A stretch of DNA of 64,000 nt from the NCBI RefSeq assembly GCF_009914755.1, contig NC_060934.1; one strand, 5' to 3'. The position numbers and the translations under genes are program-made. The notes under the pieces were generated by a model. That model made no database searches. It had not been told where the DNA came from and was given only the letters and a program-made list of their open reading frames with translations. The DNA comes from the human T2T-CHM13v2.0 reference genome, Homo sapiens. How positions within the stretch are numbered: position 1 is the first letter of the stretch; each line of letters opens with the position of its first letter. Positions 35,820 through 49,384 of the stretch are shown one piece after another.

Positions 35820-38800
35820 GGAAGAATGGAGGAACGAATGGAGAAAAGAATGGATGGATAGGAGGTAGAGAAGGAAGGGAAGGAAGAGACGGGAGGAAGG
35901 TGGATGGATAGGAGAGAGGAGAGGGAGGGGGAGGGAGGGGAGGAAGGGGGAGGGAGGGGAGGAAGGGGGAGGGAGGGGGAGGGAGGGGAGGAAGGGGGAG
36001 AGAGGGGAGGAAGGGGGAGGGAGGGGGAGGGGGAGGGAGGGGGAGGGAGGGGGAGAGGGGAGGAAGGGGAGGGGAAGTGGATAGATGGCAGGTGGGGGAG
36101 AGAGAGGAGAAAGGTGGATAAAGGGAGGGGGAGAGGAAGGAGGGGGCACAGGGGGAGGAAGGGGCACGGGGGAAGGTGGGGGGGTGGGGGGAGGAAGGTG
36201 GATGGGGGGAGGCAGGGGGAGGAAGGTGGATGGGGGGAGGCGGGAGGTGGGGAGGAAGGTGGATGGGTGGGAGGAAGAGAAGAAAAATAGATGAACAGGA
36301 AGTGGTGAATAGATAGGAGGAAAGCGGAGGAAAGGAAAGAATAAAGGAGAGAGAAGAAAGAGAAGGAAAGAAAGAACGAGAAAGAAAAGGAGAGAGAAGA
36401 AAAAGGAAAAGAAGGAGAGAGAAAGAAGGGAAGGAAGGAAAGAGAAGGAAAACAAGAGAGAAGGAGAAGGGAGAAAGAAAAAAGGAGAAGTGAAGGAAGC
36501 AGAGAGAAGAAAACGAGAGAGAAGAAAAGGAAAAGAGAGGGAAAGAAAAGACAGGAAAAGAGAGGGAAAGAAGGAAGGAAAAGAAGGAAAGAAAAGAGAA
36601 GGAAGGGAACAGAAAGTAGAAGAGAAGATAGAAGAGGAAAAAAGAGAGGAGGGGAGGGGAGGGGAGGGGAGGGGAAAAGGAGAGAGGGGAAGGGAGGGGA
36701 GGGGAGGGGAAAAGAAGAGAGGGGAAGGGAGGGGAAGAGAGGGGAAGGGAGGGGAAAAGAAGAGAGGGGAAGGGAAGGGAGGGGAAAAGAAGAGAGGGGA
36801 AGGGAGGGGAGGGGAAAAGAAGAGAGGGGAAGGGAGGGGAGGGGAGGGGAAAAGAAGAGAGGGGAAGGGAGGGGAGAGGAGGGGAGGGGAAGGGAAAAGA
36901 AGAGGGGAAGGGAGAGGAGGGGAGGGGAAAAGAAGAGAGGAAGGGAGGGGAGGGGAGGGGAGGGGAGGAGAGAAGAAGGGAGGGGAAGGGAGAGGGAAGA
37001 GAGAAGAAGGAAGAGAGAAGAAGGGAGAGAGAAGAAAGGAGGGGAAGGGAGAGGGAAGAGAGAAGAAGGGAGGGAAAGGGAGGGGAAGGGAGGAGAAGGG
37101 AAGGGAGGAGAGAAGAAGGGAGGGGAAGGGAGGGGAAGGGAGGGGAAGGAAGGGGAAGGGAGGGGAAGGGAAGGGAGGAGAGAAGAAGGGAGGGGAAGGG
37201 AGGGGAAGGGAGGGGAGGAGAGAAGAAGAGAGGGGAAGGGAGGGGAGGAGAGAAGGAGGGAGGAAAGGAGGGAGGAGAGGAGGGGAGGAGGGAGGAGAGG
37301 AGGGGAGGAGGGAGGGGAGGGGAGGAGGGAGGGGAGGAGGGAGGGGAGGGGAGGGGAGGAGGGAGGGGAGGAGGGAGGGGAGGGGAGGGGAGGGGAGGGG
37401 AGGGGAGGGGAGGAGGGAGGGGAGGGGAGGGGAGGAGGGAGGGGAGGGGAGGAGGGAGAAGGGAGGGGAGGGGAGGGGAGAAGGGAGGGGAGGGGAGGGG
37501 AGGGGAGGGGAGAAGAGGGGAGGGGAGGGGAGAAGAGGGGAGGGGAGGGGAGAAGAGGGGAGGGGAGGGGAGAAGAGGGGAGGGGAGAAGAGGGGAGGGG
37601 AGAAGAGGGGAGGGGAGAAGAGGGGAGGGGAGAAGAGGGGAGGGGAGAAGAGGGGAGGGGAGGGGAGGGGAGGGGAGAAGAGGGGAGGGGAGAAGAGGGG
37701 AGGGGAGGGGAGGAGAAGGGAGGGGAGGGGAGGAGAAGGGAGGGGAGGGGAGGAGAAGGGAGGGGAGGGGAGGAGAAGGGAGGGGAGGGGAGGAGAAGGG
37801 AGGGGAGGAGAAGGGAGGGGAGGAGAAGGGAGGGGAGGGGAGGAGAAGGGAGGGGAGGGGAGGAGAAGGGAGGGGAGGGGAGGAGAAGGGAGGGGAGGGG
37901 AGGAGAAGGGAGGGGAGGGGAGGAGAAGGGAGGGGAGGGGAGGAGAAGGGAGGGGAGGGGAGGAGAGGGGAGAAGAGGGGAGGGGAGGGGAGGGGAGAAG
38001 GGAGGGGAGGGGAGGGGAGAAAAGGGGAGGGGAGGGGAGAAGAGGGGAGGGGAGGGGAGAAGGGAGGGGAGGAGGGGAGAAGGGAGGGGAGGAGGGGAGA
38101 AGGGAGGGGAGGAGGGGAGAAGGGAGGGGAGGAGGGGAGAAGGGAGGGGAGGGGGGAGAAGGGAGGGGAGGGGAGGAGAGGGGAGAAGAGGGGAGGGGAG
38201 GGGAGAAGGGAGGGGAGGGGAGAAGAAGGGAGGGGAGGGGAGGGGAGAAGAAGGGAGGGGAGGGGAGGGGAGAAGAAGGGAGGGGAGGGGAGAAGAAGGG
38301 AGGGGAGGGGAGAAGAAGGGAGGGGAGAAGAAGGGAGGGGAGAAGAAGGGAGGGGAGAAGAAGGGAGGGGAGAAGAAGGGAGGGGAGAAGAAGGGAGGGG
38401 AGAAGAAGGGAGGGGAGAAGAAGGGAGGGGAGAAGAAGGGAGGGGAGAAGAAGGGAGGGGAGAAGAAGGGAGGGGAGAAGAAGGGAGGGGAGGGGAGGGG
38501 AGGGGAGAAGAAGGGAGGGGAGAGGAGGGGAGGGGAGAAGAAGGGAGGGGAGGGGAGGGGAGGGGAGGGGAGAAGGGAGGGGAGGGGAGGGGAGGGGAGG
38601 GGAGGGGAGGGGAGGGGAGAAGGGAGGGGAGGGGAGGGGAGGGGAGAAGAAGGGAGGGGAGGGGAGGGGAGAAGAAGGGAGGGGAGGGGAGGGGAGGGGA
38701 GAAGAAGGGAGGGGAGGGGAGGGGAGGGGAGGGGAGGGGAGAAGAAGGGAGGGGAGGGGAGGGGAGGGGAGAAGAAGGGAGGGGAGAAGAAGGGAGGGGA

Positions 38801-39390
38801 GAAGAAGGGAGGGGAGAAGAAGGGAGGGGAGAAGAAGGGAGGGGAGAAGAAGGGAGGGGAGAAGAAGGGAGGGGAGAAGAAGGGAGGGGAGAAGAAGGGA
38901 GGGGAGAAGAAGGGAGGGGAGAAAAAGGGAGGAGAGGGGAGGGGAGGGGAGAAGAAGGGAGGGGAGGGGAGGGGAGGGGAGGGGAGAAGAAGGGAGGGGA
39001 GGGGAGGGGAGAAGAAGGGAGGGGAGGGGAGGGGAGGGGAGAAGAAGGGAGGGGAGGGGAGGGGAGAAGAAGGGAGGGGAGGGGAGGGGAGAAGAAGGGA
39101 GGGGAGGGGAGGGGAGGGAAGAAGAAGGGAGGGGAGGGGAGAAGAAGGGAGGGGAGGGGAGGGGAGAAGGGAGAAGAAGGGAAGGGAGGGGAGGGGAGGG
39201 GAGGGGAGGGGAGGGGAGGGGAGGGGAGGGGAGAGGAAGGGAGGGGAAGGGAGGGGAGAGGAGGAGAGAAGGAGAGGGGCGGGGCGGAGAGGGGCGGGGC
39301 GGAGAGGGGCGGGGCGGGGCGGGGCGGGGCAGGGAGGGGAGGGGCGAAGAGGGGAGGGGCAGACGGGGAGGGGAGGGGCAGACGGGGAGG
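35820..39390 (+). repeat. ~3.5-kb polypurine/polypyrimidine tract, (GGGGA)n-based with 15- and 20-bp higher-order units
   Basis: I see no C or T between ~36630 and 39279; ends in a GGGGCGGGGC cluster at ~39276-39330. Confidence 0.98.
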
Positions 39391-39828
39391 GCATGCTGGG
39401 GGTACAGACACACCCCAATTCCCATCTTTTTCTCACTCATCTCATGTCCGGGCATGCCGGGGGTGCAGATGCACCCAAATTCCCATCTTATTCTCACTCA
39501 TCCAGTGTCCAGGCATGCTGGGGGTGTAGACACATCCAAATTCCTGTCTTATTCCCACTCATCCCGTGTCCGGGCGTGCTGGGGCTGCAGACACATCCAA
39601 ATTCCCATCTTATTCTCAACTCATCCCGTGTCTGGGCATGCTAGGGGTGTAGACACATCCAAGTTCCCGTCTTATTCTCACTCATCTCGTGTCCGGGCGT
39701 GCTGGGGGTGTAGACACATCCAAATTCCCGTCTTATTCTCACTCATCGCGTGTCCAGGCGTGCAGATACATCCAAATTCCCATCTTATTCTCACTCATCG
39801 CGTGTCCGGGCGTGCTGGGGGTGCAGAT
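39390..39828. repeat. Minisatellite, ~61-bp unit x ~7
   Basis: ggcatgctgggggtgtagacacatccaaattcccatcttattctcactcatcccgtgtcc repeated. Confidence 0.93.
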
Positions 39829-40784: not shown

Positions 40785-41504
40785 TCTCATCCGCCAGCCT
40801 GAGCTCCAGTCGACGCTCACTGGATGAGGGTTCTCATCCGGCAGCCTGAGAGCCGGTTCACGCTCACTGGATGAGTGTCATCCGCCAGCCTGAGCTCCGG
40901 TCCATGCTCACTGGATGAGTCTCACCCGCCAGCCTGAGACCCGGTCCATGCTCACTGGATGAGTCTCACCCGCCAGCCTGAGCTCCAGTCGACGCTCACT
41001 GGATGAGGGTTCTCATCCGGCAGCCTGAGACCCGGTTCACGCTCACTGGATGAGTGTCATCCGCCAGCCTGAGCTCCGGTCCACGCTCACTGGATGAGTC
41101 TCACCCGCCAGCCTGAGCCCCGGTCCATACTCACTGGATGAGTCTCACCCGCCAGCCTGAGCCCCGGTCCATGCTCACTGGATGAGGGTCTCATCCACCA
41201 GCCTGAGCTCCGGTCCATGCTCACTGGATGAGGGTCTCATCCACCAGCCTGAGCTCCGGGGTCCATGCTCACTGGATAAGACTCATCCACCAGCCTGAGC
41301 TCCGGTCCATGCTCACTGGATGAGGGTCTCATCCACCAGCCTGAGCTCCGGTCCATGCTCACTGGATAAGACTCATCCACCAGCCTGAGCCCCAGTCCAC
41401 GCTCACTGGATGAGTCTCACCCGCCAGCCTGAGCCCTGGTCCATGCTCACTGGATGACGGTCTCATCTACCAGCCCGAGCTCCAGTCCACGCTCCTTGGA
41501 TGAG
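40785..41504. repeat. Minisatellite, 44-47-bp unit x ~16, with self-complementary ends
   Basis: ctcatccgccagcctgagctccggtccatgctcactggatgag repeated. Confidence 0.95.
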
Positions 41505-44500
41505 ATGCCAATCTCACCATCAGGACCGGGCCTTCACGTTTCTGCACTTTGCTTACACCTCGGATTTTTCACAAAACCCACGTGAGCAGTTCCAAAGTGG
41601 GTGCTACCCTCCCCACTGGAGACACACCGCATGGCGTAGGCTCAGCTGCACTCCCTCCATAGCGGCTGGCGCCTAAGACGAGGAATGCGATTCATTAAAT
41701 GTTGCTGAAAAGACCAGGAAATAAACGTACGGGATCAAACTGACAGCTCCCTGTGGCAGAACACGTCTCCGGCAGCTAAGCGTGGTACCCTGTGAAGTGC
41801 CGACGGGAGCACGGCTAATCTGGAACACAGGTGATTCACCTGTCACTACAGCAACGCGGTCTAGAAAGATTCACGCTATGTCACAGGCAATGCCATCTGG
41901 ACACCCACGTTTCCCCTCCTCTGGGATTTAAGTTTAAAACACCCTTACCCTGTGAGCTGCCACATGGCCTGAGACCCTAAGTGGAGGCAACCTGCCCGGG
42001 ACAGGTCCCCGGGACCCTCCAGCCCAGGTGAGGAGGCGGTCCCTCCCCAGCACGTCTAGGAAGCGCTGCCTTGGGGTCACCAGACTGTAACTCTCATGGC
42101 ACAACAAGAATACGGACCCACTGCGCACCTGCCCCGGGAAAGCACAGCCTCTGCTGACACGAGGAATCAGAACAACCAACGGCCAGCCCAGGTGAACAGG
42201 CCAGGGCCAGCCAGCCACGTCTTCTAAAGACGACAGAACAAAATGGCATTTACGTACTTAAGAAACTTTCTCATTCCGTATGTAACCAAAGTGCAAAATT
42301 CACAAATGCCAACTGCAGGGACCTCCTCCCTCACAACTGTCAAAGCCCAGTGGGAGAATCTGCAACGGGACCTCAGAGGAAGTCCTCTCCGTGGCGACAG
42401 GGCAAGGCAGCCACTGCAAGCAACAGCACTCAGGCCAGAGCAGCTGTTCTCATGAGAACATGTGATCCAGTCACAGGATCAAACACTGGGATGGGAGCCA
42501 AGTTCTGAAAAGATAATAAAATTCCACTGATTGGATGGTGCTGAGGTACATGTTACCCTCTGTCATTTCAGTCATTAATTAGCCCTTACATGTTACCATC
42601 TGCCATTTAAATTTACCCAAATCAAGAATAAAAATAAAACTGCAGCCCAGATAGACACCTGAGGCAGTGGAAGGTCTCCGGTGCCTGTTCAGGGCTTCAC
42701 GTGGATCTGAGCATCATGCGGACACGGTGGCGTCTGCCCTCAGGGACACTGCACATCCATCCTCGTACCACGGTAGGGACGGTCACTCAGTGGGGCGGGG
42801 GGAAGTGAGGGCTGCCCCGGCCCACCCCCACAGGCAGACTCAGCCCCTCCGTGCCGCACCCACACATCCATACAGCAAATACCTGCCCAATGTCCACTTT
42901 CCGTGAGCAGGCAGCCGGGGCCTCAGGTGATTTACATACTGCTGCTGGGGGTTGGGGTGGAGACTTAGCGTTTAGTAACCACAACCCAACTATGACAGTG
43001 GTATTTCAGAGACAGGACGACATGGAGATGGGAATCCGGATGGTCTGACTGAAGGATCAGGGGAGAAATCCCTCAGGACAGAGCATCCAAACTGAGCTTT
43101 AAATGCCACCTGGACACGGCCAAGTGCACGGCCTGAGCAGAGTTCCTCATGTGGATGCAGCGGCATGGCTGTCGGGAGGGACAGCGGCGTGGCCATCGGG
43201 AGCCCTGGTAGCAGGGAGGAACTGAGACAAGTCCGTATTTGTGATTTGACTCAACAGTTGGACAGCACAGTGCAAGCCTGCAGGCCAGAGGCCTCCGGTG
43301 CAGACAGTGTAGAGCTTAACTCACACTGACCATGGGAGGCCTCTTCCTGGAGAGGCTGCTCACGCGACCCCATGATGGAAAAAGTGTGGGGCTTAACTCA
43401 CACTGACCACGGATACCTCTTCCCTGGAGAGGCCGCTCACGTGACCTCATGGAGAGAGGCTGTGCCGCACAGACAAACCCCCTTACAGAGTCCTTGTAAC
43501 TTGCACCTGGGCATCAAGCTGTCCGGCTATTGAAGGAAAAGCAAGCTGGGCTTGGAGAGGAATACCAGATCTTCATAAATCACTCAATACCAAGAAACAT
43601 TTCACAGACAAACACATAAGAAGTTGCTGTGAGAAAGAGGAGCTGTATCTGAGCAAAGAAGGTTCCACCATTTATAGCCACACTGAAATTTTACTCTCTA
43701 AATCTCCACGGCCTGTGTCATACAAGCAGTGAGGCCTTGTTATCCAAGTCGACACTGTTATTAAGATCTCTCTGAAGAGGCTGCCAGGCAGTGGATTTTA
43801 TTTCCTAGGTTTACAACTTTGACTGGGCTTAGAGACTGATGAGGGATGGGTTTGAACCGCAGAAGGGTGAGAGCGAAGTGGGCAGCTTCCCTAAGCAGCG
43901 TCTTCTCCCTGAAGATGATCTTCCAGGCACCCTCTCTGACCCTTCTTTCACTGCATGTATAACTCACATTTCTTCCTGGCTCCGGACAGTCTTTTCCTCA
44001 ACTAGATTTAGGCAGGTGCTCAGCACCAACGCTCACTTCTGAATCCCGACTGGAGGCCCCGACAGACGCTGCCCTCCTGAGCAGCTGGGACGTGCCTGGC
44101 TGGCCTAGGGAACAGAACCCCCATTGTAGCTCGTAATTCTGCATCCCAAACAACATCCTAGAAACACTTTTAGAATAGTTTCTGGAGAAATAGGAGTGTA
44201 AATGTTAGGAAAAAAGGGTGGAAGTTAATCAGAACACAAACCCCTTACAGGCAAGTGCGCAGCAGCACAGGGGAACAAGAAAGAAAGATGTTTTCCACGA
44301 AGATCCTGCACAAAGGAAGTCACGTCCCATGGGGCCAACCAAGAAAGCAGCCTCGGCTTTGGAAACGTCTGCGTTCCTTGCTGCTTCCCAGGACAGCTGC
44401 ACATGGTGCACACTTGCGTGTCACAAGCAACGTCTCCAAATGAAGGTCGGCAGGGAAACAGCCTCGCTGGGGCCCTAGCACCGCTGTCCGGAGTCCCCCC

Positions 44501-44806
44501 ATCCTGAGTCTGGTGTCTGGGCCTCAATCAGGCGGCCCGGGCCGTCCTTCTCCTGTTTTCCTCACGTTTCCGGCAGATAAATTCTGAAATGGACCTCGTG
44601 GCTAAAACCCAGCCCTGTCGCCTTCTCATCAGCTCTGCCCCTTGCTCCTGAGAGGGTGCGAGGGAATCAGCCCAGAGAGGGCTCCTGAGAGGGCCCAGAG
44701 AGGAGGAACGCAGTGGAGGCCAGGAGGCGAGGCGGGGTGTCCTCTTCTGAGACCCCAGTGGCCAACTGTAATAATAAAGTTTGCCTCTATGACTTCATTT
44801 TACCAA

Positions 44807-45092
44807 TTTTTTTTTTTTGAGACAGGGTCTCGCTCTGTCCCCCAGGCTGGAACACAGTGCCACAATCATAGCTCACTGCAGCCTTGACTTCTTGGATTCA
44901 AGCAATCCTCCTGCTTCAGCCTCCCATATAGCTGGGATCACAGGCACCCACCATCATGCCTAATTTTTTCTTTTGTAGAGACGGGGACTCCCTTTGTTGC
45001 CCAGGCTGGTCTGAAACACCTGGACCTAAGCAATCCCCTTCCTCAGCCTCCCCAAGTGCTGGGATCACAGGCGTGAGCCACCACCCCCGGCC
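44807..45092 (-). mobile_element. AluJ-like
   Basis: (T)n gagacagggtctcgctctgtc...gtgagccaccacccccggcc. Confidence 0.9.
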
Positions 45093-45763
45093 TTGTATGT
45101 GATTTTAAAACACATTTTGAAGTGTAACCCTGAACACGAACCTAAAACTTCCACCTGCATATGATTTTCTTCATTCTGGTGGAAAATGCACTGAACTCCC
45201 TTTTTGCATCATGAAATTCCTGTATTCAAAATACTGTCCGCCAAAGTAATTCTTACCTTTGAACAGAATCCTTACCTCTAAGAACATACTCTATGATTAA
45301 CTGCTTTTTCTATTTCAAAAACCCTTACTTTGCTCTTTGGAGATGGAAATCTCAAAATCACTCCTTCTAGCAGATCTCAGAGGCCAAGACCCATCAGCTC
45401 ATCCTTTAATTGGGTCTTTGGCTATAAGATGAAAGTCTGTAGAATACCAGTGGCTTTAAGAAGTTTTATAATTTGTCACGCATTCTTCTTAAGTGTTTTC
45501 TAAGTGGTGCCCAACTGAGAAAGGGGAATTGTAAAAGCAACGTTCTACTTCAATAGGAAACGCAGAACTGGGCCCTGATTCACAGGGACAGACCTGGTCT
45601 CTGGCGAGCTCTGGGCCTGTGGAGCGACCTGGCTCACTGGAGAATGGGACCCTCAGGCCCCCAAGGCCACACCCTACACGTCTGTACAGGATGGCACTCG
45701 GCGGGTGGCCCTTTTCTAATGTGTACCCTGCTGTGGGGCTGGCTCTCAGCAAAGCAGCGCTCA

Positions 45764-46165
45764 CCGAAACGAAAGTAAAACAGAGGCCGGTTCCCTGCGG
45801 TGCTGGCCACCCGCTCCCGAGCCGCAGCTTCTCGGACGTCGCACACCCCGATGTGGGCAGAGCGGAATGTTCTCCTCGGCGCTCCTTCACTGTGCTGCAG
45901 TCTACACCGAACCACGGCAGCTCCATTCGCTGCTGTAACAAGTTGAAAAAAAACTAATTAATTCAAACTTTAGTTTTTTTTAAATTTGTTACAGCGCTGA
46001 GCAGAGCTGCCGACCCCATGCAGGACAGCACACAGACCACCAAGGGGACCACAGGGCACGACCGCCCTCTGCGCCCGGCTAAGGCCAGGGCCACCGCGGG
46101 AGGCACGGTGCGCTGGAGAACCGTCCTGGCAAGCGAGGAACCGCTTCTGTTTCACTTTTGTTTGG
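45764..46165. repeat. Imperfect ~400-bp palindrome with 12-nt loop at 45958-45969
   Basis: Inner arms gctgtaacaagttgaaaaaaaactaa / ttagttttttttaaatttgttacagc; outer arms ccgaaacgaaagtaaaacagaggccggttcc / ggaaccgcttctgtttcacttttgtttgg. Confidence 0.88.
45765..45932 (-). CDS. DIP2C: In-frame cassette exon of DIP2C (168 nt, phase 1-1): (T)ANGAAVVRCRLQHSEGAPRRTFRSAHIGVCDVREAAARERVASTAGNRPLFYFRF(G)
   Basis: Acceptor ttttttttcaacttgttacag|CAGCGAAT, donor CGTTTCG|gtgagc; length divisible by 3; no stop in the exon 2/exon 3 frame; CpG-rich; overlaps ORF 45634..45915. Confidence 0.75.
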
Positions 46166-47445
46166 CAAGGCAAGAAAGTTAAAACCAACAGCGTCCGTGG
46201 CCTACAGTCAGACCCCACCTTCTGCAGCACATGAGGGCACCTGCAGAGGGGAACTCACAGGGACAGGGCGGGGGCAGCTGTCGCCCCATGGCTCTGCGAG
46301 AAGAGAATGAGGGAGGGGGCGCAGGCCATCAGGGGATCTACCCAGCACTGCCCTGAAGCCTCTCGCCCCAGCATTCCAGCCCAGCCCTCTGCTCCCCTTC
46401 TCTCGGGTTCCTCGGCGTCTATCCCTGACTTAAGCCTCTGCTAAGCAAGGTCCACAGAAACATGTTCACTGTTACATCACTGTCTCAAAAATCAAGGCAA
46501 GAAAAACACGAAATGAAAACAAAACTACCAATAGCAGAATCTCCACACCGTTTCCTGCAGCCTGAGCCTCAGGAAACTTTCCTTACTGAGTCAACAGGAC
46601 CCGGACGGGCCTCGGGAAGAACAGAATCGGGGTTTGTGCAGGTGTGGACATGTGCATCCTTAAACCTTCTAAAATCTTCTTTCAATGGTAAGAACTATGC
46701 AAGTTCAATTTCCACCTTTAAAATTTATGTTGCTAGCCTTTATGTTTGAGGAAGAAACTGCTTGTGTTAGCTTTAAGCCATTCCTCAAGCCTACCAAATT
46801 TTCAAGGTCGCTCTTGGGCTGAATTGAGCTTGCCAGCTGGGAACTGAGGTGCTAGAATCCCCATCTAATATGAGATTCTTTTTCCTGACATTTACAGAAC
46901 CCAGCTCAAGTGCAGGAAAGCTGCCAATCTGCACACGTAGAAACGCTGGCGGGAAACCGACTGCCCTTCTCAAGAATCATCATGGATGTTTGCAACCACA
47001 TCTCAACACACAACCAGCTTTCACGATTGCCAAGTCCTGGGCGGGGTATCACAGCACTGTCTAGATTTGGCCTGTGCCACCAACAGAAGCCTTGGATTAA
47101 ACCAGAATCAATAGTAATAAATAGCTCTCTAAACCAAATAATATGTTGAAATCACTAATGCACTCATATTTTTACGATTATAGCATTTTAAAGTAACCAA
47201 CCCAATACTGATCTCTACTTATAGAGAAAACACCTATTAGGCACACTTATAGAAAAATCCTCTGTGCCTTGTATATTCACACAGCACGTGTGATCACTCA
47301 AAGGAACTGAATGCCTGGAGGGTGAACGCCAGACGCCTCCTCCTGCCGACTGGGAAGCAAGGGAGCGTCTGCCTCCAGATGTTTCTCTGGCACATAGTGA
47401 ATGCGGGAAATGAGAGGACTCATGCTACTCATGGGGGTTACCTAC

Positions 47446-47517
47446 TCGGAGGCTGCGGAAGGTAGGCTCCAATTAACTTTGACCTCTTCTTTTCATATCC
47501 TTTTTGTGTGATGTCAC
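47446..47517 (-). CDS. DIP2C: DIP2C coding exon 2 (72 nt, phase 1-1), DMAP1-binding domain region: (G)DITQKGYEKKRSKLIGAYLPQPP(R)
   Basis: Minus strand ccttctcttgcag|GTGACATCACACAAAAAGGA...CAGCCTCCGA|gtaggt; open frame; GDITQKGYEKKR is the DIP2-family motif. Confidence 0.95.
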
Positions 47518-48554
47518 CTGCAAGAGAAGGAAAATGAAGTTCAGTATGGTCTCCGTGGATAGAGCATTATCATTCAACGGTGCCCAAGAAGACACAGTTA
47601 TCACAGTATCTTCTGTGTGCCTCATTGTTAGAATTTTAAAAGCAAGCACTGCACATCAAACAACTTCAGTTCCTCCCCTGCTCTCGAACAAAAGCCCACA
47701 GCATGTAAGTCACTAAAACTCATTTGTTAAACACACGCCTGTTTCTGGCCCCTTCTGTATTTATCCGGATGGGGTCCAGGGTTAGACCCCTGCCATCTCA
47801 TCCCCACCCGCTGGCACAGGAAGCCAAGCCTGGTGGCCGGGGCTCTCGTTAACTCAGTCAACGACAGATCCTGCAGCTGCCAGGGCCGGGATGGCCGACA
47901 CCAGCACCTATTGGCATCTTCTTCATTAACAAGATGTTTTCTAACCAAGCAGGTCGGTCACAAGGACTTGAAGCCGCCACAGTGTTTTTGAAAAAGGAGT
48001 GACAAAGGCTAAGGGAAGAAGCAAAAGGTGTGAAACCTGCAGAAATCCAGAAGACAAGAGAAAGGTGCTTGTGGTGAGGCAAGAATCCACATGTTAAAGC
48101 TCACAGACAGCCACGGACGCGCAGCAGCCATGCCTTTCCTGGAGCCAGCGCAAGCACACAGGACAAAGCCACCTCATCGACACACAGAGGCCCTTCCCAT
48201 TCACAAGCTCCAGCACACACAGAATACTCATTCGCTGTTCATTTTTTTGGATCTGTTGTATTGTTTTCTAAGACTGATCAAACCATAATTCCAAGAAGAG
48301 TGAAAAATTCAAGCTTTAACAAAAATATAGCAAATGAATGAAAAGTTATCAAGGTACACACACAAGCTGGTCAACTCGCTTTTCCTAGTGAAAGGCGGGC
48401 AGTCTCGGATGCTGCCTCTGCCTCCACGGCTGCCTCCACCAACTCACAGCTCATGATACAGGTTCTCGTCTCCCCCACGGAACACAAGGCTGACGTCTCA
48501 ACACGGAGCCAAGAACCAAATGACACGGAACCCGCATCCGCCCATCAATGAGTG

Positions 48555-48860
<306 letters not shown>

Positions 48861-49384
48861 GATGCTAACTAGGTAGCTGGCCACTGACAACAAAGGACAA
48901 TTTCTGCAGAAATGTTAAAGCTTGCCGGGCACTCCACACCGGCAGCCATCAGCTGCCCACTACGGAGACGCTCAGTTGCTTTTGGAAATGCCTTGTTAAC
49001 CCGTTTTACAAACAATGTCCAAAATCTGAACCACAGAAGCAGCCACATGTGCACGTGCTTGATTTAAATCGAGCCCCCAGTCAATCAGCAAAGAAAATTT
49101 CCAGACAAGACTTTAATAAATCCTAGGTTACTATCATCTCTCAAAACCTAGGAGGTGGGAAAGGGTGGCAGCACTGAGTAACTTCCATGCCCCGCATTTT
49201 CCCCCAAACCAGGGTCTGGGAACTAAGTCTCGAGGCTGAGCCCAGCTTCCAGGCCACTTCTGGAGACACGCTCTGTGCTCACGGCCTGCTCCTTGCCGAG
49301 CTGCAAGGCAAGACAGTTCAGTGCAGCTCTTCACAGGAGGGTTTGCTGGCCCATCCCCAAAGATGAAAGTGTTTAATCCTTATA

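What the first reader, a model, noticed from the sequence alone, without database searches (positions are those of the whole stretch)
45764..46165. DIP2C cassette exon is one arm of a ~400-bp palindrome that could bury both of its splice sites
Seen: the 168-nt exon plus its polypyrimidine tract has a diverged inverted copy directly next to it, across a 12-nt loop (45958-45969). At the acceptor, exon-sense ttagttttttttcaacttgttacagcagcgaatggagctgccg aligns with plus-strand ttagttttttttaaatttgttacagcgctgagcagagctgccg. At the donor, exon-sense ggaaccggcctctgttttactttcgtttcgg aligns with ggaaccgcttctgtttcacttttgtttgg. The middle ~135 nt has similar length in both arms but only patchy identity, so complementarity is best kept at the two splice sites. 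Inference: the complementary arm is transcribed just before the exon, so the pre-mRNA could fold into a long hairpin hiding the U2AF site and reaching the donor. That would be a structure-based splicing switch and a possible non-Alu ADAR substrate. A likely origin is an ancient palindromic (MITE/Eulor/UCON-like) element with one arm exonised. I do not know whether this has been described.
Basis: partly seen in the sequence, partly recalled or inferred. Interest (0 to 1): 0.85.

Follow-up and report, generated by a model that had tools for sequence, protein, structure and literature searches.

The report
Conserved DIP2C exon clamped by mirror
An optional, evolutionarily old coding exon of the human DIP2C gene sits next to two short intron stretches that are its mirror image exactly at its two splice sites, so the RNA is predicted to fold back and hide those sites, which is a plausible but untested splicing brake.

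Summary
The inverted repeat is real, but it is two blocks, not a continuous 400-bp palindrome. The inner block is 45915-45957 / 45970-46012 (43 nt, 81%, 12-nt loop). It covers the polypyrimidine tract, the AG and exon nt 1-18. The outer block is 45767-45794 / 46137-46163 (24 matches, 3 mismatches, 1 gap). It covers the exon's 3' end, and in RNA it extends through wobble pairs over the donor. Both blocks beat shuffles. This is the only centre in the 64-kb window with such a score. The ~125 nt between the blocks is no more alike or complementary than shuffles.

The exon is a true cassette: it is in 4 of 9 RefSeq models and absent from NM_014974.3. Its 55-aa peptide is conserved in monkey, seal, bat, bird and lizard, so it is not a young exonised repeat. 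The sequence is single-copy in T2T-CHM13, so the MITE/Eulor origin gets no support.

Best reading: two intronic elements that clamp the splice sites of an old cassette exon. They are probably relics of an ancient inverted duplication, kept by selection. That makes this a new member of the known class of structure-regulated exons. Conservation of the intronic arms, editing and the effect on splicing could not be tested here.

The parts
45765..45932 (-). 168-nt in-frame cassette exon of DIP2C (phase 1; it inserts 56 residues after residue 52, inside the DMAP1-binding domain)
   Evidence: Present in 4 of 9 RefSeq models, all four Gnomon XM; absent from NM_014974.3. Phase from coding coordinates; translation. 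Peptide found in human, monkey, seal, bat, bird and lizard records. It splits Pfam PF06464.
45933..45957 (-). Polypyrimidine tract and 3' splice site of the cassette (two AGs 3 nt apart at 45930-45935). It is the exon-side strand of the inner helix together with exon nt 1-18 (45915-45932).
   Evidence: Sequence; I1; pairing probabilities 0.86 / 1.00 / 0.85.
45958..45969 (-). 12-nt A/U-rich hairpin loop. It holds a branch-point-like motif whose A (45958) lies 25 nt upstream of the AG. The consensus is recalled, not tested.
   Evidence: Mean probability of being paired is 0.23.
45970..46012 (-). Intronic strand of the inner helix, complementary to the polypyrimidine tract, the AG and exon nt 1-18
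   Evidence: I1, 43 nt, 81%; 0 of 2000 shuffles. Its best partner within 44500-47600 is the cassette 3' splice site at -46.9 kcal/mol; the next best is -30.3.
46013..46136 (-). Intronic spacer, G+C-rich. It is neither alignable nor complementary to the exon middle beyond chance. CpG observed/expected is 0.66.
46137..46171 (-). Intronic strand of the outer helix, complementary to the last ~28 exon nt. In RNA it also pairs with donor positions +1..+5 through two G-U pairs.
   Evidence: (I2). Its best partner within 44500-47600 is the cassette 5' splice-site region at -41.9 kcal/mol; the next best is -25.8.
45757..45794 (-). Exon-side strand of the outer helix: the last 30 exon nt plus the first 8 intron nt, including the GU donor
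   Evidence: MFE pair list and probabilities 0.85 and 0.71.
46259..46295 (-). 35-nt exon-like unit upstream of the mirror arm. Its ATG-led frame forms the N-terminus of a human protein record that is joined directly to the cassette exon.
   Evidence: ORF 46179..46289; P0001 sequence; acceptor-like and donor-like flanks.

Best explanation
The 168-nt exon is an old, protein-coding cassette exon of DIP2C, shared at least by mammals, a bird and a lizard. Just upstream in the same intron lie two short elements. One is the reverse complement of the exon's polypyrimidine tract, AG and first 18 nt. The other is the reverse complement of its last ~28 nt, running into the donor. In the pre-mRNA they are predicted to form two helices that close a large internal loop holding the exon body. 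This bipartite clamp would hide both splice sites while leaving the likely branch point in the hairpin loop. The expected default is exon skipping, which fits the reference mRNA lacking the exon. Inclusion would need the clamp to be opened or outcompeted, for example by a helicase, an RNA-binding protein, editing or folding kinetics. The most economical origin is an ancient inverted duplication of tract plus exon. The copy's middle then decayed to randomness while its two ends were kept by selection.

Shown: the blocks, their significance, the predicted fold, the cassette status and the conservation of the peptide.
Inferred: selection on the intronic blocks, the repressive direction and the origin.
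For: The blocks are real and symmetric.

Folds: z = -6.35 for 451 nt; inner hairpin -44.8 kcal/mol, z = -7.8; outer duplex -47.5 against a shuffle mean of -20.3, with 0 of 1000 shuffles as good. Splice-signal pairing probabilities are 0.71-1.00 in a 1.2-kb context.

Each intronic arm has the cassette splice site as by far its best partner within 3.1 kb: -46.9 vs -30.3, and -41.9 vs -25.8.

The cassette is in 4 of 9 models and not in NM_014974.3.

The peptide is 79-100% identical in monkey, seal, bat, bird and lizard fragments. 37 of 55 columns are invariant. So the exon body has evolved slowly for roughly the age of amniotes (that age is recalled).

The intronic middle is at random identity to that slowly evolving exon, while the ends are at 81-86%. 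A single neutral decay rate cannot give both. So the ends evolved several-fold slower than the middle (inference).

Residues coded by helix nucleotides are invariant in 14 of 16 columns, against 23 of 39 elsewhere (one-sided Fisher p = 0.038).

CpG observed/expected is 0.70 in the intronic arm, against 0.31 and 0.37 in flanks of equal G+C and 0.32 window-wide. This hints that the arm has not decayed as freely as its flanks.

General background: conserved complementary regions obstruct weak splice sites, and looped-out exons have lower inclusion (PMC8052449, passages read).
Against: No orthologous DNA could be read, so conservation and covariation of the intronic arms are untested.

The fold is only a thermodynamic prediction. 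The core of the inner helix is an A8:U8 run, and proteins bound in vivo may prevent folding.

There is no strand signature of RNA-level selection. The antisense inner hairpin is even slightly more stable (-48.4 vs -44.8). G-U pair counts are the same or nearly so on the two strands: inner 2 vs 2, outer 4 vs 3.

The excess conservation of exon-end residues is weak (p = 0.038, six sequences) and is also expected from ordinary exon-end constraints. The arm's CpG value is reached by about 7% of G+C-rich windows in this window.

Arm-to-arm gene conversion could also keep the blocks alike without any RNA function.

No published duplex, editing or splicing data for this exon were found.
Confidence: 0.5

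Rival explanations
1. It is a functionless relic. A small inverted duplication (replication template switch) left a DNA palindrome. The two blocks remain alike by chance, by low mutability of A/T-rich CpG-poor sequence, or by occasional arm-to-arm gene conversion. The predicted RNA fold is a by-product with no effect on splicing.
For: There is no strand asymmetry in wobble pairs or stability, as expected for DNA-level symmetry. The spacers are of near-equal length, 127 vs 130 nt, as a duplication would leave. There are no literature data on function.
Against: The exon body is constrained, yet the copy's middle is at random identity while its ends are at 81-86%. Slower mutation of A/T-rich sequence cannot produce that contrast, since most sites of the middle are not CpG. 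The blocks coincide with the two splice sites rather than with arbitrary parts of the arm.
Confidence: 0.25
2. The exon-intron duplexes mainly serve as an ADAR substrate, with the intronic arm acting as an editing complementary sequence. Editing would recode the cassette, or alter the AG or the tract partner, and splicing effects would be secondary.
For: The architecture matches the general rule that edited coding exons form a dsRNA with an adjacent intron (PMC10404624, abstract read). The predicted helices have about 40 pairs each. Stable complementary regions are enriched in editing sites (PMC8052449, passages).
Against: No paper holds DIP2C together with 'A-to-I' (0 papers), or with ADAR and 'editing sites' (0 papers). 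Site catalogues sit in supplements that I could not open. No reads were available.
Confidence: 0.1
3. The whole 400 bp is an ancient palindromic transposon-derived element (MITE/Eulor/UCON-like) with one arm exonised.
For: There is terminal plus central inverted symmetry. Rfam's nearest matches, all below threshold, are MIR5070, MIR9486 and MIR2599 at 27-37 bits. I recall these, from no call, as plant MITE-type miRNA hairpins.
Against: It is single-copy in T2T-CHM13 by BLAST and by motif search. No masked repeat of 100 bp or more overlaps it. No target-site duplication is evident at the ends (reading). The Rfam scores are far below the gathering scores of 100-120. The middle of the arms is not palindromic.
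Confidence: 0.07
4. The intronic arm works on its own, as a plus-strand exon, a DNA-level binding site or a Drosha-type hairpin. On this view its likeness to the exon ends is incidental to splicing of the cassette.
For: The plus-strand copy keeps a tract plus AG and an open frame of 56 codons. The hairpin also folds well as antisense RNA.
Against: No plus-strand gene or small RNA gene is annotated in the window (annotation given). The plus-strand copy has no GT donor at the matching place. The miRNA family scores are far below threshold.
Confidence: 0.05

Closest known systems
Pairs of conserved complementary regions (PCCRs) and local hairpins that occlude splice sites or loop out exons (PMC8052449; passages read)
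   Same: Complementary segments next to splice sites. They are predicted to be stable and are associated with lower inclusion of the enclosed exon. The complementary strands avoid the branch point.
   Different: Here one strand of each helix is the exon itself plus its own splice signals. That catalogue excluded exons beyond 10 nt, so most of this structure lies outside its search space. Conservation of the intronic strands is untested here. DIP2C does not occur in the main text of any listed RNA-structure paper; the supplements and track hub were not seen.
Exon / intronic editing-complementary-sequence duplexes of ADAR recoding targets (PMC10404624, abstract; PMC7045468, search listing only)
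   Same: A conserved coding exon base-pairs with a nearby intronic complement before splicing.
   Different: No editing site is known here. There are two helices placed on the splice sites rather than one helix centred on a codon. The complement lies upstream of the exon.
Competing RNA structures created by tandem exon duplication in mutually exclusive exon clusters (PMC6071210, abstract read)
   Same: The idea that duplicating an exon with its neighbouring sequence creates regulatory complementarity.
   Different: Here the duplication is inverted, not tandem, so the copy pairs with its own source. No competing selector was found within 3.1 kb. There is a single cassette, not an exon array.
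Small stem-loops at single splice sites, such as the MAPT exon 10 donor stem (recalled; no call)
   Same: A local stem limits access to a splice site of an alternative exon.
   Different: Those stems are roughly ten pairs at one site. Here about 40 predicted pairs lie at each of the two sites.

Membership tests
Structure-regulated cassette exon (splice-site occlusion by RNA pairing) | Complementary segments overlap the splice signals of the regulated exon | tested here: met
   Inner helix covers the tract, the AG and exon nt 1-18. Outer helix covers the last 28 exon nt and donor +1..+5.
Structure-regulated cassette exon (splice-site occlusion by RNA pairing) | Predicted stability clearly beyond composition-matched controls, and robust in a larger context | tested here: met
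   z = -6.35 and -7.8; 0 of 1000 shuffles for the outer duplex; pairing probabilities 0.71-1.00 in 1.2 kb; cognate partners are best by 16 kcal/mol.
Structure-regulated cassette exon (splice-site occlusion by RNA pairing) | Both strands conserved, with compensatory substitutions across species | not testable with these tools
   No vertebrate DNA is within reach. There are only indirect hints: the rate contrast between the ends and the middle and CpG retention.
Structure-regulated cassette exon (splice-site occlusion by RNA pairing) | Disrupting and then restoring the pairing changes exon inclusion; the duplex is seen in cells | not testable with these tools
   This needs a minigene or antisense experiment, and PARIS, RIC-seq or icSHAPE data.
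Structure-regulated cassette exon (splice-site occlusion by RNA pairing) | Sense-strand signature: G-U pairs tolerated on the transcribed strand only | tested here: inconclusive
   G-U pairs: inner 2 vs 2, outer 4 vs 3 for sense vs antisense. The antisense inner hairpin is 3.6 kcal/mol more stable.
Conserved coding cassette exon | Frame-preserving, alternatively included, with the peptide conserved in distant species | tested here: met
   168 nt, phase 1, no stop. In 4 of 9 models. Orthologous fragments from five other amniote species at 79-100% identity. 37 of 55 columns invariant.
ADAR substrate (exon-ECS duplex) | Exon-intron double-stranded RNA of about 20 pairs or more | tested here: met
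   By prediction only: 39 (inner) and 36 (outer) Watson-Crick or G-U pairs.
ADAR substrate (exon-ECS duplex) | A-to-G differences between RNA and genome at the duplex | not testable with these tools
   Reads are off. 0 papers hold DIP2C with 'A-to-I', or with ADAR and 'editing sites'. Supplements are closed.
MITE / ancient palindromic repeat family (Eulor, UCON) | Several related copies in the genome | tested here: not met
   BLAST of the 451 nt finds only itself and its own inverted match. At 2 or fewer mismatches the 25-nt motif occurs only in the two arms; at 3 mismatches there are 26 other sites against 19 for the control. A profile search (Dfam) was not available.
MITE / ancient palindromic repeat family (Eulor, UCON) | Annotated or masked as a repeat; terminal inverted repeats flanked by a target-site duplication | tested here: not met
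   No masked stretch of 100 bp or more overlaps 45765-46165; the nearest are 44795-45019 and 48546-48865. No direct repeat abuts the outer block. Masked stretches under 100 bp are not listed, so a short annotated fragment cannot be excluded.
miRNA precursor families of Rfam | Score at or above the family's gathering score | tested here: not met
   Best is 36.5 bits against a gathering score of 100 (MIR5070). The others are lower.

The most novel reading that the evidence does not exclude
A 'mirror exon'. An inverted copy of an exon and its acceptor region has been kept for more than 300 million years, not as coding sequence but only at its two ends. It would act as a built-in antisense clamp on both splice sites of its source exon, and possibly as an editing partner too. 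That would make inverted micro-duplication a route to structure-based splicing control, the inverted counterpart of the tandem-duplication route proposed for mutually exclusive exons (PMC6071210). It would also point to a class that catalogues restricted to intronic sequence have missed by design.
Probability: 0.3. Interest if true: 0.7.

Novelty: new member of a known kind. Interest (0 to 1): 0.5.

Why it matters
DIP2C is a gene that papers link to neurodevelopment (background passages of PMC5513093). Nothing I could find describes this alternative exon. It inserts 56 conserved residues into the predicted DMAP1-binding domain (domain span 9-119 from PMC5513093).

If the clamp works, it gives a simple, testable handle on that isoform: antisense oligonucleotides against 45970-46012 or 46137-46171 should raise inclusion. 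It would also be a clean, non-repeat example of exon-intron pairing at both splice sites at once. And it suggests that searches for regulatory RNA structure should not exclude exons.

Tried and rejected
Repeat-family origin. The whole-genome BLAST, the motif search with a reversed control and the masked-repeat table were all negative.

Paralogous exon in DIP2A or DIP2B. A six-frame search of the genome with the 55-aa peptide found only the locus itself at E up to 10.

Homology of the arm middles. Ungapped offsets, gapped global and local alignment and RNA duplex energy against shuffles, and protein-level comparison all gave nothing.

Rfam. Only sub-threshold hairpin families turned up, plus an SRP/Alu fragment at 45000-45091.

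Strand asymmetry as a test of RNA-level selection was inconclusive.

Competing selector. An upstream U-rich stretch (46511-46527, I4) looked like a possible rival partner of the A-rich arm. It did not rank among the six best partners in a 3.1-kb scan.

CpG island or promoter explanation for the G+C-rich arm. The stretch 46200-46399, which holds the upstream exon-like unit, has CpG observed/expected of only 0.23, so a classic island is unlikely.

Structure of the insert. AlphaFold on the six-row alignment gave pLDDT below 50 for residues 52-115, which is uninformative. No fold search was run.

Literature, by terms searched:
- DIP2C + alternative splicing + exon: 13 papers, judged from the search listing only (titles and abstract starts); none appeared to concern this exon.
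- DIP2C + complementary regions + RNA structure: none of the 15 listed papers holds DIP2C.
- DIP2C + inverted repeat: 2 papers, both unrelated.
- DIP2C + DMAP1 + isoform: only PMC5513093 was opened, and the passages read there say nothing on this exon; the other listed papers were seen as titles and abstract starts only.
- Inverted duplication + cassette exon + RNA secondary structure + splice site: no listed paper joins 'inverted duplication' with 'cassette exon'; one unrelated clinical paper holds it with the other two terms.

The protein word searches can see only fragments of 54-457 aa. Candidates known from samples alone were left out: 29, 35 and 133 respectively. So the lack of amphibian or fish hits means little, and full-length isoforms were invisible.

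Full report
WHAT IS THERE. The region was read on both strands. The repeat finder reports two inverted pairs that share one centre:
- I1: 45915-45957 / 45970-46012 (43 nt, 81%, 12-nt gap).
- I2: 45767-45787 / 46143-46163 (21 nt, 86%).

A gapped local alignment of the reverse-complemented left side against the right side gives the same two blocks as the two best hits. The first scores 49 on diagonal 0. The second scores 34, covers 45767-45794 / 46137-46163 and lies on diagonal +4. The third best, score 27, is far off the diagonal.

With dinucleotide shuffles, 0 of 2000 reach the inner score. 1 of 2000 reaches the outer score anywhere, and 0 of 2000 do so near the diagonal. I slid the same test over the whole window: 3175 centres, of which 3068 gave an alignment. 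This is the only centre scoring 40 or more, and the 99.9th percentile is 36. Genome-wide, the central 98 nt matches its own reverse complement at E = 4.8e-9.

WHAT IS NOT THERE. The ~125 nt between the blocks in the two arms (spacers 127 and 130 nt) cannot be shown to be related.
- Identity is 22-37% at all 20 offsets tried.
- Gapped global and local scores, and RNA duplex energies on either strand, lie within the shuffle distributions.
- The arm's translation in the matching frame has no BLASTP alignment to the cassette peptide of monkey or lizard.

'A ~400-bp palindrome' should read 'a bipartite inverted repeat whose two blocks sit on the two splice sites'.

THE EXON. RefSeq has the 168-nt exon in 4 of 9 DIP2C models. 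All four are Gnomon predictions. It is absent from NM_014974.3. It starts in phase 1 and adds 56 residues after residue 52. The in-frame peptide has no Pfam match.

I expected a young, noisy exon, and that was wrong. Word searches for protein fragments returned these records:
- a human record (isoform CRA_d, partial);
- a snub-nosed monkey record, 100% identical;
- a Weddell seal record, 84%;
- a horseshoe bat record, 79% to seal;
- a fairywren (bird) record, 85%;
- a horned lizard record, 79-81%.

In the alignment 37 of 55 cassette columns are invariant. The exon is therefore at least as old as amniotes and is under protein-level constraint. The genome holds no paralogous exon, so nothing in DIP2A or DIP2B. 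The exon thus arose, or survived, only in DIP2C. It interrupts the Pfam DMAP1-binding domain (PMC5513093 gives the domain as residues 9-119, exons 1-4).

The human record shows that the cassette's acceptor is used. It joins an upstream ATG-led unit (46260-46289, donor at 46258) to the cassette and then reads on past the cassette's donor.

THE FOLD. All folds below are of the sense strand, i.e. the DIP2C pre-mRNA.
- The 451-nt stretch folds at -208.8 kcal/mol, z = -6.35, with 0 of 100 shuffles as good.
- The inner hairpin alone is -44.8 kcal/mol, z = -7.8.
- The outer duplex is -47.5 against a shuffle mean of -20.3, with 0 of 1000 as good.
- In a 1.2-kb partition function, the probability of pairing with the opposite block is 0.86 for the tract, 1.00 for the AG, 0.85 for exon nt 1-18, 0.85 for the last 28 exon nt and 0.71 for donor +1..+6. 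It is only 0.33 for the exon middle. The 12-nt loop stays mostly open at 0.23.
- The donor is reached through two G-U pairs.
- A branch-point-like motif sits at the 3' edge of the loop, 25 nt from the AG. This is my reading, with the consensus recalled.
- Scanning 3.1 kb for alternative partners, each intronic arm prefers the cassette's splice-site region by about 16 kcal/mol over the next candidate. I see no competing selector.

WHY I THINK THE INTRONIC BLOCKS ARE KEPT BY SELECTION (inference). Suppose the arm is an inverted copy of tract plus exon. The exon side has changed slowly, so the divergence of the middle is mainly decay of the intronic copy. That decay has reached randomness. The copy's two ends are still 81-86% like the exon's ends. 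One neutral rate cannot give both. CpG hypermutability cannot explain it either, since most sites of the middle are not CpG. So either the ends are constrained, or they are refreshed by gene conversion, or the two blocks arose separately yet symmetrically, which is unlikely.

Two weak side observations agree with constraint:
- Residues coded by helix nucleotides are invariant in 14 of 16 columns, against 23 of 39 elsewhere (p = 0.038).
- The intronic arm retains CpG at 0.70 of expectation, against 0.31 and 0.37 in equally G+C-rich flanks. About 7% of G+C-rich windows here reach that value.

WHAT SPEAKS AGAINST, OR IS MISSING.
- There is no strand signature. The antisense inner hairpin is slightly more stable (-48.4) and G-U counts are balanced.
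- No orthologous DNA, reads or structure-probing data can be reached here.
- The literature is silent. No paper joins DIP2C with RNA structure terms, with 'A-to-I' or with ADAR and editing sites. The two papers holding DIP2C and 'inverted repeat' are unrelated.
- The large catalogue of conserved complementary regions excluded exons beyond 10 nt (PMC8052449). It would therefore mostly miss this structure. Its tables are supplements that I could not open.

ORIGIN. The transposon reading fails its testable criteria. The sequence is single-copy, it is not masked at 100 bp or more, no target-site duplication is evident, and the Rfam hairpin families score far below threshold. A Dfam profile search remains to be done. 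An ancient inverted micro-duplication fits best. It explains the shared centre, the 12-nt spacer and the near-equal arm lengths.

COMPARISON WITH WHAT IS KNOWN, AND VERDICT. It works like known structure-regulated exons and like exon-ECS duplexes. It differs in three ways: it uses the exon's own mirror image, it clamps both splice sites at once, and it involves a deeply conserved coding cassette. I file it as a new, untested member of a known kind. Confidence in the clamp mechanism is 0.5 and interest is 0.5.

The bolder reading is a 'mirror exon' retained for over 300 million years as a built-in antisense clamp. That would be an inverted counterpart of the tandem-duplication model of PMC6071210. 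I give it 0.3.

Noticed in passing
window 38007-39375: A G-rich tandem array of 15-bp period, about 91 copies, 79% matches. It is probably the intronic DIP2C 'LG4' with 15-bp periodicity studied in PMC7293029 (passages). The paper's coordinates were not seen, so the identification is a guess.
   Followed up: partly
window 46259-46295 (minus strand): A 35-nt exon-like unit with a pyrimidine tract and AG upstream and a consensus-like donor at 46258. Its ATG-led frame is the N-terminus of the human protein record P0001, joined to the cassette exon. It is not in the RefSeq models of this window. At 35 nt it would shift the frame if used inside the main transcript.
   Followed up: partly
window 45930-45935 (minus strand): The cassette's acceptor has two AGs 3 nt apart (a tandem acceptor). 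Use of the second would drop one alanine (frame). Both AGs lie inside the inner helix.
   Followed up: no
window 45580-45591 and 46255-46266: An exact 12-nt direct repeat, 14 nt at 86% (D6/D3). The second copy overlaps the donor of the 35-nt unit. By my own arithmetic (no call), about 0.04 such pairs are expected in 1.2 kb of random sequence. It is not symmetric about the palindrome centre and is unexplained.
   Followed up: no
window 45765-46165 and flanks: CpG observed/expected is 1.03 in the exon and 0.70 in the intronic mirror arm. It is 0.31 and 0.37 in equally G+C-rich flanks and 0.32 window-wide. This is compatible with constraint or local hypomethylation of the arm.
   Followed up: partly
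window 46166-46177 and 46493-46504; 46511-46527: An exact 12-nt direct repeat lies next to the outer intronic arm and again about 330 nt upstream (D7). Beside the upstream copy is a U-rich stretch that resembles the cassette's tract and is 82% complementary to the A-rich arm (I4). It did not rank as a competing partner.
   Followed up: partly
window 44795-45091: A masked repeat at 44795-45019 and a sub-threshold Metazoa_SRP match at 45000-45091 (31.8 bits against a gathering score of 70). This is an ordinary Alu-type fragment about 700 nt downstream of the exon.
   Followed up: no
window 39389-39827 and 40785-41000: Two further tandem arrays, with periods 61/123 and 44/88. These are ordinary subtelomeric-style minisatellites in the same intron.
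   Followed up: no
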